Source: Podarcis gaigeae
Taxonomy: Eukaryota
Length of the DNA: 64,000 nt
Direction: 5' to 3' (one strand)
NCBI GenBank assembly: GCA_964106915.2
Contig: OZ066919.1
Shown here: in pieces, positions 38,501-41,500 of the stretch
Numbering within the stretch: position 1 is the first letter of the stretch
How the letters are laid out: each line of letters opens with the position of its first letter
Program-made: the position numbers

Positions 38501-41500
38501 TTTGTTTTAAATAAGATGATATTGCTAAATATTACAGTTTAAAATAAGGCTCACCAGGGGGCTATGTTTGCCACACCACTAACTGGTCTTCAGACATGAC
38601 ACAGCAGCATACTGGCAAAGAAGATAGAGAAAATACATACCATGATGTAGGCATTTCTGTTGATAAATTTGAGGAATTTTTCTAGGCACCAGAAACAGCA
38701 TTTGAGGCAGCAAAGGAGGAACTTAGCAAAGACATTCTGTGAGCCTGCAGGAGGGGGGAAAGGAAACATTTCTTAAGAAAGAAGAAAACCTAAGAAGATG
38801 GAAAACATGGCCCATACTTGATTTGACTTGGTTTGCACCAGCACATCTGTGTGGGTTTGCTGGCTGATTGCTTTCTCACTGATTTGCAACAAGTATGTAC
38901 AGTGTTTTGTGAGGCGTTTTGGTAAAAAAAAGAGGGGGTGCCAGTACTGGTATCTTGATAAAAGTGTTGTGGGTATCAGCACACAATGACTGTCATGGGC
39001 AGCAAAAAGGCCAGAGGGTATGGTACTTCTTATTGATGAGTACCATCCCCTCAAAAGCACTATGTGGAATCTACCATGCTGTAGTTTAGCAGTTTATCAT
39101 GTGCAAGCCAGCACAAAACTGACACTTTGGATTTGCCACACAGCACATTTAAGCTGTTGTTGACGACATATAGTGCAGAACTGATAATGGTACTAGGGTT
39201 TCCCATTCTACACCATCCCTGCTTTTTTGTAAAAGCAAACCGTGGTTTACTGTGAATGCAGTGTGTTGGTGCACACTTCTGCATTCTTTGTCACTTCTCC
39301 ACCTGTTGCCTTACCAAAATACAGCTTGTTGTGATGTCCTAACTAGAGTTTGTCATTTGTTTCTGCCCAGTGAGTGGTGACCAAGGTTTGCTCTTGGGCT
39401 TACTGATTGTGGGGGGGTTTTTTGGGCGGGGGGAGAGAAGAAACCCTGGACCATGATGAGCCAGACTATGGAAGCCTCACACATAGCAGCAGGAGGAGAG
39501 CCGAGAACTTTTCAACAATGTGCACAAGCACACTCAAAATTCAGATTAATATCATATGATAACCAGGCCATTATTTCATTTCTTGCTGTGCCAAAGGAGA
39601 AGCAGCATAAACGACTTCCGGGTCGGCGCCATCGCCGAATGGCGGACTCCCTCCGAGCTCCGGAGGGAGCCTGCACGGCAGGGGCTGGGTCCTACCGCAC
39701 CGGCGATGCGGGGACCCTTAAAAACCACGGCCACGGGGGCCGTGGACATGGAGACTCGGCTGGCACCGTTAGCGCCCTCCCGACTCGTGAAGGAGCCTTT
39801 TTAAAGGCTAAGGATCGGGTGCCGGGGAGAAGCGTGGTGTTTTGAGTCCTCTGCCATCCCTGCCGTGCGAAGCCGCATGCCATCCGGCGGAGAGCGCTGG
39901 CTTTTTCCTTTGAAAATTTGGACCTAAAAGAACAACCCGTAAGTAATTGGAATCTGGACTAAAAAGAGGGACAAAATTTTAAAAATTTCGGAGCGAGCGG
40001 GGGAGGCGCAAAAAAGGAAGTCAGCCACCCCCTCCATTGTAGAAGGGTCAAAACAAAGGATTTGATAACTAAGATCGGAATAACATCATTTTGGCAAGTT
40101 TGGAACCTCACGAGTGAAGAATATGAGATTGAGCTGGAGGAGGAAAGTAGAATTTGGACTTAAAAACACCCCCCCCCCTGGAACCCCGGGAGCGATCGAT
40201 GACGGTGTTTGGAGAGGAGAAAGGCAAGTTTTGACAGCTGTCAAAGAGCTGTCAAAGCAGAAAAACAAGATAGAGACTATGTTACAAGGACTTTGCAGGT
40301 TATATTTGTTATAAATTGGATACAAATTGCTTTAAATAAGGATTACAAAGTTACTAGGGCTAATGGATGTGATCTGGAAGAGAACTCAGTTTTTGCAATC
40401 CACCTAGAGGAGCCGAGGGATATCACAAGTGGTTTTAGTTGGAAATTTGAACAGAATTTTTTATCTCCTGGGAAACTGCAGAAATGGAACATTATTATGA
40501 CTACAGAGGCCAGTATACCGAAGAAGACAATGGAATCATCCGTTGTGGAATGAAAGGAACTTGACGTAATGTTTTGTTTCTGAGCAACAAGCCTCTGCAA
40601 AGGAACTAACTTTTGGAATTAGGACATTTGTGCAGGAAAACAGGGACAGAAAGAAATAGAAAGAGGAGTGTGGCCAATAAGAACAACAAAACAACAAGAA
40701 TTGGACTAAGTCGAAAGTGGGGACATTTGGGACATCCAGATTTGACAAGCTTAAGGATTATAATTTGGAGATTTTCACTCCTGGATATAAAAATCTGGAT
40801 GGAAAAAATGGGCCTTTCTTTGAGACAGAATCCTTTCATGATTGGACATGCGAAACTAAAGAGGACTGGCAAAGGACTATGACTTAGAGAGACGTGGAAA
40901 TATCGGACATTGAGGAATATTGGGAACGCAACCGGGAAAAGGGGGGGTGGGAAATGTGGAACCCAAAGGGCGTAAACTATGTTTTATTTAGGCTATATAC
41001 ATCCACATGGTATTCTAAAGTGGGGAACTCGTGGAGGGACTAAGCCGATTTTAGGGGAATGGAAAATAATTTTTTTTTTTTTATAAAAAAAAAAAAAAAA
41101 TTTTGGGTTAAGGATAACAAGTTTGAATTGAGGAGAAGAACTTGTTGAGATTATCTGTTTATTTGAGAGATTTGGAATACAAGGGGGGGAGGGAAGGGGA
41201 AGTCCTGAAAGGATGTAATTGGAAAAAGATTTGAAATTGGATGTTTTATTAATTTGTAATTAATTGGAAAACTTTAATAAATATTTTTAAAAAAAAAAAA
41301 AGAGAAGCAGCATAAACTACGGACACCCTGAACACTCCATGAATGATTATTCTAAAAAAGAAAACCTCATCAGTTACTGCACAGGTGCATTCATAATGCA
41401 TGCACACAGTATTTCCCATCATTAAAAGAGAAACAGGGGCTTGTGGCCCACATTTCTGAACCATACTAGCCTATGAGCCTGAGAGATGATTACCAGCTTT

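What the first reader, a model, noticed from the sequence alone, without database searches (positions are those of the whole stretch)
39597..41317. Young-looking 1.69 kb L1-derived retroposon with an intact 5' end but decayed coding sequence
Seen: perfect 16-bp TSD, AATAAA plus poly(A), and an undecayed CpG-rich 5' region starting GACTTCCGG. There is no substantial ORF. Remnants are a short coiled-coil-like stretch (40114-40314) and a segment reading TTRIGLSRKW...P.LT....IW....LD (40613-40882) that resembles an L1 ORF2 C-terminus by eye. Established: L1 insertions are normally several kb long or 5'-truncated. Inference: a fresh insertion that keeps the promoter end but has lost EN/RT and carries eroded coding remnants suggests a non-autonomous family mobilised in trans by L1. 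It may be missing from repeat libraries. It puts a CpG-rich promoter-like region antisense inside an SLC44A5 intron.
Basis: partly seen in the sequence, partly recalled or inferred. Interest (0 to 1): 0.7.

Follow-up and report, generated by a model that had tools for sequence, protein, structure and literature searches.

The report
Young non-coding RNA retrocopy in reptile intron
This is a recently inserted 1.7 kb reverse-transcribed copy of a non-coding RNA inside an intron of a reptile choline-transporter gene; it shows no trace of L1 coding sequence, so it is a fairly ordinary retrocopy whose source is still unknown.

Summary
The insertion is real. It spans 39613-41301 (+), 1689 bp, and is flanked by a perfect 16-bp duplication. 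It has AATAAA, an A13 tail and a 300-bp CpG-rich 5' end (30 CpG, o/e 0.93). It lies antisense in a 2789-nt SLC44A5 intron of a non-mammalian, squamate-like genome.

The "L1-derived" reading is not supported. Pfam found no L1 ORF1, endonuclease or RT signal in any of 6 read-through frames or in 12 ORFs. No L1 protein appeared among PDB chains for the 3 plus-strand frames. None appeared among 1.84 billion representative proteins for the frame-3 reading of the 5' 936 nt, the only stretch sent there.

That last search found three relatives of the 5' 750 nt:
- P0121: a 68-aa ORF, 88% identical, on a 1745-nt contig.
- P0122: a diverged 175-aa ORF.
- P0123: a Podarcis lilfordi hypothetical protein.

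The sequence therefore has kin in other lizards. The longest ATG ORF inside the element is 68 aa, and it is not conserved in Podarcis.

Best reading: an L1-machinery retrocopy of a roughly 1.7-kb non-coding Pol II transcript. I could not test whether it is a one-off copy or a member of a self-propagating family, because no source genome or repeat library was available.

The parts
39597..39612 (.). Left target-site duplication GAGAAGCAGCATAAAC
   Evidence: Exact 16/16 match to 41302-41317. It extends to 23 nt at 91% identity (39593-39615 vs 41298-41320).
39613..41301 (+). Inserted retrocopy, 1689 bp including the tail
   Evidence: Bracketed by the TSD. No other copy in the window.
39613..39912 (+). 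CpG-rich 5' region. Starts G-ACTTCCGG (39614-21, ETS-like) with GCCAT (39628-32) and AATGGCGG (39638-45, YY1-like core). The motif names are recalled, not tested.
   Evidence: 65.7% G+C, 30 CpG, o/e 0.93. GC 0.675 at 39600-39799. Motifs read.
39639..39845 (+). 68-aa ATG ORF (stop included), probably non-functional
   Evidence: P0121 is 88% identical over 67 aa with the same start and stop. The Podarcis relative P0123 has neither the same start nor the stop. No Pfam family.
39690..40358 (+). Stretch with diverged relatives elsewhere
   Evidence: P0123 maps to 39690-39959 (43% over 92 aa). P0122 maps to 39877-40191 (frame +1) and 39936-40358 (frame +3) at 36%, crossing one frameshift and three stops of the window copy.
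39913..41301 (+). Purine-rich, C-poor body with excess TGGA
   Evidence: C is 3-21 per 100 nt and GC skew reaches +0.75. TGGA occurs 30 times vs 13.4 +/- 3.3 in dinucleotide shuffles, 0 of 500 reaching 30.
41070..41100 (+). Internal T13-AT-A16 palindrome
41276..41281 (+). AATAAA polyadenylation signal
   Evidence: Read. It lies 7 nt before the tail.
41289..41301 (+). Poly(A) tail, 13 uninterrupted A
41302..41317 (.). Right target-site duplication
41535..41660 (-). Upstream flanking SLC44A5 exon (approximate ends)
   Evidence: tblastn of P0005 residues 642-683, 79% identity, E 5e-14.
38626..38745 (-). Downstream flanking SLC44A5 exon (approximate ends)
   Evidence: tblastn of P0005 residues 674-713, 85% identity, E 2e-17.

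Best explanation
The element is a recent, full-length retrocopy of a capped, polyadenylated, roughly 1.7-kb non-coding Pol II transcript. It was inserted by target-primed reverse transcription using a LINE (L1-type) endonuclease and reverse transcriptase supplied in trans.

Proposed steps:
1. The source RNA starts in a CpG-island-type 5' region and ends after AATAAA.
2. The LINE protein nicked the bottom strand next to the T-containing target.
3. It primed on the poly(A) tail and copied the RNA to its 5' end.
4. Staggered second-strand cleavage produced the 16-bp duplication.

The source is not detectably L1-derived. I think it is most likely a lineage-specific host non-coding gene, or a low-copy lineage founded by one, with relatives in other lizards. 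That would make this copy a processed non-coding-RNA retrocopy.

Shown: the insertion anatomy, its youth, the absence of coding capacity, and the existence of relatives. Inferred: L1 as the enzyme source, Pol II origin, and low copy number.
For: Retroposition hallmarks:
- Exact 16-bp TSD, AATAAA 7 nt before a pure A13 tail, and a sharp 5' boundary.
- It is the only A run of 9 or more in the window with an exact TSD of 12 nt or more.

Youth:
- TSD 16/16 and an uninterrupted tail.
- CpG o/e 0.93 in the first 300 nt, against 0.14-0.45 in the window's 2-kb bins.

Non-coding:
- The longest ATG ORF that starts inside the element on the plus strand is 68 aa.
- Its start and stop are not kept in the Podarcis relative.
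- No Pfam family in 12 ORFs or 6 read-through frames. No Rfam family at E up to 1.

Not L1:
- 0 L1-related hits (all plus-strand frames) and (frame 3 of 39615-40550 only).

Relatives:
- P0121: 88% over 67 aa, contig 1745 nt, close to the element's length.
- P0122: 36% over 148 aa, across frames.
- P0123: Podarcis lilfordi CAI7935146.1, 43% over 92 aa.
- All.

Low copy number:
- 1 hit among 1 candidate for the 68-aa ORF.
- 0 hits among 53 candidates for the 125-aa minus-strand ORF.
- No second copy in 64 kb.

L1 in reptiles: L1 is consistently present in non-avian reptiles, with several lineages in the anole (PMC5203782, passages read).
Against: - No parent gene with introns was found, so 'processed' is inferred only from the ends.
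- No L1 RT or endonuclease was seen in the window: 0 of 166 ORFs of 70 aa or more outside the element. The enzyme source is assumed, not observed.
- With the 16-bp TSD the inferred nick site (bottom strand TTCTC/CTTTGG) is pyrimidine-rich before the nick but lacks the usual purines after it. A 20-bp TSD with one mismatch would give CCTTT/GG.
- The strong strand asymmetry (C-poor, GC skew up to +0.75) and the TGGA excess are more typical of a long-lived retroelement lineage than of an ordinary host exon.
- Relatives at three different divergence levels also fit a family.
- Protein databases only show copies that happen to carry an ORF, so low copy number is weakly grounded.
Confidence: 0.5

Rival explanations
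1. It is a member of a self-propagating, non-autonomous retroposon family. The family would be Pol II-transcribed, carry its own CpG-rich promoter-proximal region inside the transcript, be mobilised in trans by L1 (SVA-like in logic), and be maintained across lizard lineages.
For: - Relatives at about 88%, 43% and 36% translated identity in three separate records, one from a 47-kb unplaced Podarcis lilfordi contig.
- A 1745-nt contig carries the closest relative, near the unit length.
- ETS-like and YY1-like motifs lie downstream of the first base, so they would travel with the RNA (motif names recalled).
- The composition is retroelement-like: purine-rich and C-poor.
- The 5' end is full-length.
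Against: - No second copy in 64 kb.
- Only 1 protein cluster with 1 member matched the 68-aa ORF among 5.8 billion clusters, and none matched the 3'-half ORF. A prolific family should leave many ORF variants.
- Copy number and differing TSDs were not testable here.
Confidence: 0.33
2. It is an internally deleted L1. It would keep the L1 5' UTR and 3' end and carry eroded ORF1/ORF2 remnants in between.
For: - Poly(A) plus a 16-bp TSD.
- An A/G-rich sense strand.
- A YY1-like core near the 5' end, as in some L1 5' UTRs (recalled).
- Frame 3 of 39615-40550 has only 4 stops in 312 codons.
Against: - No Transposase_22, RVT, Exo_endo_phos or other L1 domain at E up to 10 in any of 6 frames or in 12 ORFs.
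- No L1 ORF1p or ORF2p chain among PDB hits at E up to 10. The three plus-strand frames gave 1, 0 and 39 hits, all unrelated and all E >= 0.02.
- phmmer of the frame-3 read-through against 1.84 billion representatives gave 3 hits, none an L1 protein.
- The relative P0122 reads the 'coiled-coil' region in a different frame.
Confidence: 0.07
3. It is a retrocopy of a protein-coding mRNA (a classical processed pseudogene) whose ORF has been lost.
For: - The 5' end looks like a housekeeping-type CpG-island start with an ATG 27 nt in.
- The 68-aa ORF is kept with the same ends in P0121.
Against: - A copy this young should still carry the parental ORF, yet nothing longer than 68 aa starts inside it.
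- That ORF has no family and is not conserved in Podarcis.
- About 9 of 68 residues differ from P0121, with no sign of constraint.
- No known protein matched frame 3 of the 5' 936 nt among 1.84 billion representatives.
Confidence: 0.08

Closest known systems
L1-mediated processed retrocopies of cellular RNAs, including non-coding RNA retrocopies
   Same: Full-length copy from the first transcribed base, polyadenylation signal, poly(A) tail, 16-bp TSD, and no promoter upstream of the copy.
   Different: No parent gene was identified and intron loss was not shown. Retrocopies of non-coding genes are said to be rarely reported (PMC7692494, abstract start seen in the search listing). The composition is unusually strand-skewed.
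SVA/LAVA-type composite non-autonomous retroposons of primates (recalled)
   Same: About 1.5-2 kb, Pol II transcript, CpG-rich 5' part, AATAAA plus poly(A), L1-type TSD, no coding capacity.
   Different: No hexamer repeat, VNTR or SINE/LTR-derived modules. TRF found only four tiny arrays. No internal duplication was found. Copy number is unknown. The host is a reptile.
Internally deleted or half-L1 (HAL1-like) non-autonomous L1 derivatives (recalled)
   Same: Shorter than an L1, poly(A), TSD, intact 5' end.
   Different: Such elements retain recognisable ORF1 or L1 termini. Here 0 L1 domains were found in 6 frames, and no L1 proteins in the PDB or in the representative search of frame 3 of 39615-40550.
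Autonomous L1 (LINE-1)
   Same: The insertion signature is the one L1 enzymes leave.
   Different: No ORF1 or ORF2, and 1.7 kb instead of about 6 kb.

Membership tests
LINE-1 (autonomous) | ORF2 with APE endonuclease and reverse transcriptase | tested here: not met
   Pfam at E up to 10 on 6 read-through frames and 12 ORFs gave no RVT or Exo_endo_phos. PDB phmmer on 3 plus-strand frames gave no ORF2p.
LINE-1 (autonomous) | ORF1 (coiled coil, RRM, CTD; Pfam Transposase_22) | tested here: not met
   No hit. phmmer of frame 3 of the 5' 936 nt against 1.84 billion proteins gave 3 hits, none ORF1.
LINE-1 (autonomous) | Poly(A) tail and a 7-20 bp TSD | tested here: met
   A13 tail and a 16-bp exact TSD.
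L1-derived non-autonomous element (deleted L1 / HAL1-like) | Nucleotide identity of the 5' and/or 3' ends to an autonomous L1 of the same genome | not testable with these tools
   No source genome, Dfam or Repbase was available, and no L1 was found in the window.
L1-derived non-autonomous element (deleted L1 / HAL1-like) | Recognisable remnants of L1 coding sequence | tested here: not met
   all plus-strand frames; frame 3 of 39615-40550.
Processed retrocopy of a cellular RNA | Poly(A) tail after a polyadenylation signal, a TSD, and a copy starting at a transcription start | tested here: met
   AATAAA at 41276-81, A13, 16-bp TSD, and a CpG-island-like start. That the first base is a true start site is inferred.
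Processed retrocopy of a cellular RNA | An intron-containing parent gene elsewhere | not testable with these tools
   No eukaryotic genome collection was open. The DNA behind P0121-P0123 could not be fetched.
Non-autonomous retroposon family (SVA-like logic) | Many copies with the same internal structure and different TSDs | not testable with these tools
   One copy in 64 kb. Three relatives were seen only as translated ORFs. Indirect sign of low copy number.
Non-autonomous retroposon family (SVA-like logic) | Promoter activity carried inside the transcript | not tested
   ETS-like and YY1-like motifs lie at +2 to +33. No expression or reporter data.
SINE (Pol III, tRNA/7SL/5S-derived) | tRNA-, 7SL- or 5S-related head | tested here: not met
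   ARAGORN found 0 genes. Rfam gave 0 at gathering score for the window and 0 at E up to 1 for the element.

The most novel reading that the evidence does not exclude
The element is one copy of an undescribed reptile retroposon family. It would be a Pol II-transcribed, non-coding 1.7-kb unit that carries a CpG-island promoter core inside its own transcript, is mobilised by L1 in trans, and has persisted across lizard families. That would make it a squamate counterpart of the SVA strategy with unrelated sequence.
Probability: 0.3. Interest if true: 0.55.

Novelty: new member of a known kind. Interest (0 to 1): 0.3.

Why it matters
It is a clean, datable example of recent L1-type retroposition in a reptile, where L1 copy numbers are low. 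It more than doubles a short SLC44A5 intron, from about 1084 to 2789 nt. It places an undecayed CpG island and four polyadenylation-like hexamers on the gene's strand, about 220 nt from an exon. It could therefore be polymorphic and could affect transcription or 3' end choice, though neither was tested. If copies turn out to be numerous, it would be a repeat family likely to be missing from libraries and mis-annotated as hypothetical proteins, as in Podarcis lilfordi.

Tried and rejected
1. L1 coding remnants. Tested with Pfam, the PDB and 1.84 billion representatives (frame 3 of 39615-40550 only). Nothing L1-like was found.
2. Known RNA families or a SINE head. Rfam gathering on the window, Rfam at E up to 1 on the element, and ARAGORN all gave 0.
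3. A second copy in the window. The repeat finder and blastn with word size 7 gave only the self hit and A/T-run matches.
4. Internal duplication or VNTR. TRF gave four trivial arrays. Block-wise local alignment stayed below shuffles, 31 vs a null maximum of 43.
5. The last 201 nt as a duplicate of the preceding 240 nt (an old tail at the internal A16). The hint was z 3.9 with 1 of 300 shuffles. It vanished once the A/T runs were removed, z 1.1 with 45 of 300. Rejected.
6. Cryptic splice acceptors on the gene strand. A strict pyrimidine-tract/AG rule found 0 inside the element and 12 in the whole window, so no exonisation claim is made.
7. Identifying the species from SLC44A5. Proteins with more than 300 aligned residues were ranked; the 25 best printed were all 81-87% identical, turtles, birds and squamates alike. 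This was not discriminating.
8. A six-frame Pfam scan of the whole window failed because the output was too large and was not repeated. ORFs of 48-69 aa outside the element (329) were not scanned.
9. The bacterial promoter/terminator scan is irrelevant to a eukaryotic locus.
10. Three literature searches returned results or passages. None turned up a described lizard family of this kind. These were keyword searches only, and supplements were not consulted.
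Full report
**Scope and handling.** I take the window to be non-human.
- It has no 7SL/Alu-type or other Rfam match at gathering score in 64 kb.
- Its choline-transporter exon is closest to squamate proteins. It is 96% identical to Hemicordylus capensis, 95% to Lerista, Laticauda, Pseudonaja, Naja and Varanus, and 93% to Anolis. No mammal appears among the 120 hits listed, of 2126 significant among 2184 candidates.
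- Over all exons in the window, identity to turtle, bird and squamate CTL5 proteins is a uniform 81-87% among the 25 best printed. I therefore call it only a non-mammalian, squamate-like sauropsid.
- The 149-N block at 51290-51438 was left untouched.
- Exons were searched singly or located with reference proteins. I built and searched no joined spliced model.

**The observation.** The sequence at 39597-41317 is as described in its essentials.
- GAGAAGCAGCATAAAC occurs at 39597-39612 and again at 41302-41317, enclosing 1689 bp.
- The repeat extends to 23 nt at 91% identity. A 20-bp duplication with one mismatch is an alternative reading.
- I scanned every A run of 9 or more on both strands. This was the only tail with an exact flanking repeat of 12 nt or more within 8 kb. 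One other run had only a low-complexity 11-mer. Only 6 of 2000 random 12-mers had such a copy.
- AATAAA lies at 41276-41281, 7 nt before an uninterrupted A13 (41289-41301).
- The first 300 nt are 65.7% G+C with 30 CpG, o/e 0.93. The window's 2-kb bins have o/e 0.14-0.45.
- The perfect duplication, pure tail and undecayed CpGs together indicate a recent insertion.

**Genomic setting.**
- Pfam finds Choline_transpo exons on the minus strand at 42365-42700 (E 5.7e-15) and 45046-45354 (E 2.1e-5, below Pfam's cut-off). It also finds a LIM exon at 1283-1576 on the plus strand.
- tblastn with a lizard CTL5 protein lays out exons from 62770 down to about 30611 on the minus strand.
- The insert lies between the exons at about 41535-41660 and about 38626-38745. 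That intron is 2789 nt and would have been about 1084 nt before the insertion.
- The poly(A) end lies about 220 nt from the upstream exon.

**Is it L1-derived?** I found no evidence for that.
- Pfam at E up to 10 gave no L1 ORF1, endonuclease, RT or ORF2 C-terminal family in 12 ORFs of the element. Two of the 12 had unrelated sub-threshold hits.
- The same was true of all six frames read through with X at stops. The only hits were Rap1_C at E 0.088 and Ost4 at E 0.67.
- Human and mouse L1 proteins have solved structures. phmmer of the three plus-strand frames against PDB sequences at E up to 10 gave 1, 0 and 39 hits. All were unrelated (an E2 enzyme, a Na/Ca exchanger, antibody chains) with E >= 0.02.
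- Frame 3 of 39615-40550 has only 4 stops in 312 codons. I sent it to the search of 1.84 billion representative proteins, and none of its 3 hits was an L1 protein.
- Remnants decayed beyond recognition cannot be excluded. Nucleotide comparison with an L1 of the same genome was impossible, because 0 of 166 ORFs of 70 aa or more elsewhere in the window had an RT or endonuclease domain.

**Relatives exist.** The same search, with follow-up, found three records.
- P0121 is a 68-aa protein from an unnamed 1745-nt contig. It is 88% identical over 67 aa to the element's 5' ORF (39639-39842), with the same start and stop.
- P0122 is a 175-aa protein from an unnamed 931-nt contig. It maps to 39877-40191 in frame +1 and 39936-40358 in frame +3 at 36% identity. 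It crosses a frameshift and three stops of the window copy, which is the signature of a diverged nucleotide relative rather than of a protein.
- P0123 is CAI7935146.1, a 'hypothetical predicted protein' of Podarcis lilfordi on a 47-kb contig. It maps to 39690-39959 at 43% and reads through the window's stop codon. It lacks the window's start codon.
- So at least the first 750 nt have kin in other lizards, and the 68-aa ORF is not conserved.
- A word-indexed search of 5.8 billion clusters with that ORF found only P0121, 1 of 1 candidate. A search with the 125-aa minus-strand ORF of the 3' half found nothing among 53 candidates.
- The 3' 750 nt were otherwise tested only by Pfam, the PDB and Rfam.

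**Coding capacity and RNA families.**
- The longest ATG ORF that starts inside the element on the plus strand is 68 aa, followed by one of 63 aa.
- Rfam gives nothing at E up to 1. ARAGORN finds no tRNA-like head.

**Unexplained features.**
- The body (39913-41301) is purine-rich and C-poor, with 3-21 C per 100 nt and GC skew up to +0.75.
- TGGA occurs 30 times against 13.4 +/- 3.3 in dinucleotide-preserving shuffles, and 0 of 500 shuffles reach 30. The loose context is A-(A/T)-T-TGGA-A.
- A T13-AT-A16 palindrome sits at 41070-41100.
- No tandem or duplicated structure explains these features.

**Mechanism.** The anatomy is what target-primed reverse transcription by an L1-type enzyme leaves.
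- A polyadenylated RNA is copied from its tail to its first base and is flanked by a 16-bp duplication.
- The inferred bottom-strand nick is TTCTC/CTTTGG. With the 20-bp reading it is CCTTT/GG. Neither is a perfect match to the usual T-run/purine site (recalled).
- L1 is consistently present in non-avian reptiles, with several lineages in the anole (PMC5203782, passages read). L1 acting in trans is therefore the natural inference, but it is not shown here.
- The first base (G) followed by an ETS-like ACTTCCGG and a YY1-like ATGGCGG core (motif names recalled) fits a TATA-less CpG-island start. These motifs would travel with the RNA.

**Family or one-off?** I could not settle this.
- For a family: relatives at three divergence levels, a closest relative on a contig of unit-like length, retroelement-like composition, and possible promoter elements inside the transcript.
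- For a host non-coding gene with an occasional retrocopy: no second copy in 64 kb, and very few ORF variants in very large protein collections.
- The second argument is weak, because such collections only show copies that happen to carry an ORF.
- My estimates are 0.5 for a retrocopy of a host or low-copy non-coding transcript, 0.33 for a self-propagating non-autonomous family, 0.07 for a deleted L1, and 0.08 for a decayed protein-coding pseudogene.

**Possible consequences (inferred, untested).**
- On the gene's strand the insert contributes four AATAAA/ATTAAA hexamers (at 41278, 41250, 41163 and 40988).
- It contributes no strong acceptor-like site under a strict rule, 0 inside against 12 in the whole window.

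**What stayed unchecked.**
- Copy number and TSD diversity in the source genome.
- Dfam and Repbase.
- The empty site in relatives.
- The DNA of the contigs behind P0121-P0123.
The prokaryotic genome collection was not scanned because it cannot hold this locus.
- Paper supplements were not consulted. Keyword searches and passages read revealed no described lizard family of this kind, which is weak evidence of absence.

**Verdict.** This is a real, young, anatomically clean retrocopy of a non-coding RNA and a new member of a known kind. The L1-derivation is unsupported, and the family hypothesis is open and easy to test with the source genome.

Noticed in passing
window 50107-51165 (+), next to the N block 51290-51438: A 353-aa open frame, the longest in the window, with a sub-threshold GIY-YIG endonuclease match (E 0.00098, 19.8 bits vs cut-off 22.6). 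It may be a fragment of a mobile element. The adjacent N run was left untouched.
   Followed up: no
window 44134-44215 and 46192-46273: Two 82-nt copies, 90% identical, of a SINE-like repeat ending in a T run. By recall it resembles squamate SINE tails.
   Followed up: no
window 22384-22631 and 55040-55277: A repeat of about 250 nt in two copies, 84-87% identical and 32.6 kb apart. Unclassified.
   Followed up: no
window 37067-37373 and 58918-58947: T10A10 and T10A13 palindromic centres. The first is flanked by 44-nt inverted arms (37067-37110 / 37330-37373, 75% complementary). They look like foldback or MITE-like structures. The element's own T13-AT-A16 has the same form but shares no flanks with them.
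   Followed up: partly
window 61736-61863: A 53-nt inverted repeat, 92% complementary, with a 22-nt loop.
   Followed up: no
window 1283-1576 (+): A LIM-domain exon (Pfam E 2.6e-15), convergent with SLC44A5. This would fit an LHX8-like neighbour (gene order recalled from mammals).
   Followed up: no
window 32466-32556: An (ATCT)n-type microsatellite with interruptions.
   Followed up: no
protein P0123 (CAI7935146.1, Podarcis lilfordi): A public 'hypothetical predicted protein' of 106 aa appears to be a chance ORF over a relative of this non-coding element. It is probably an annotation artefact.
   Followed up: partly
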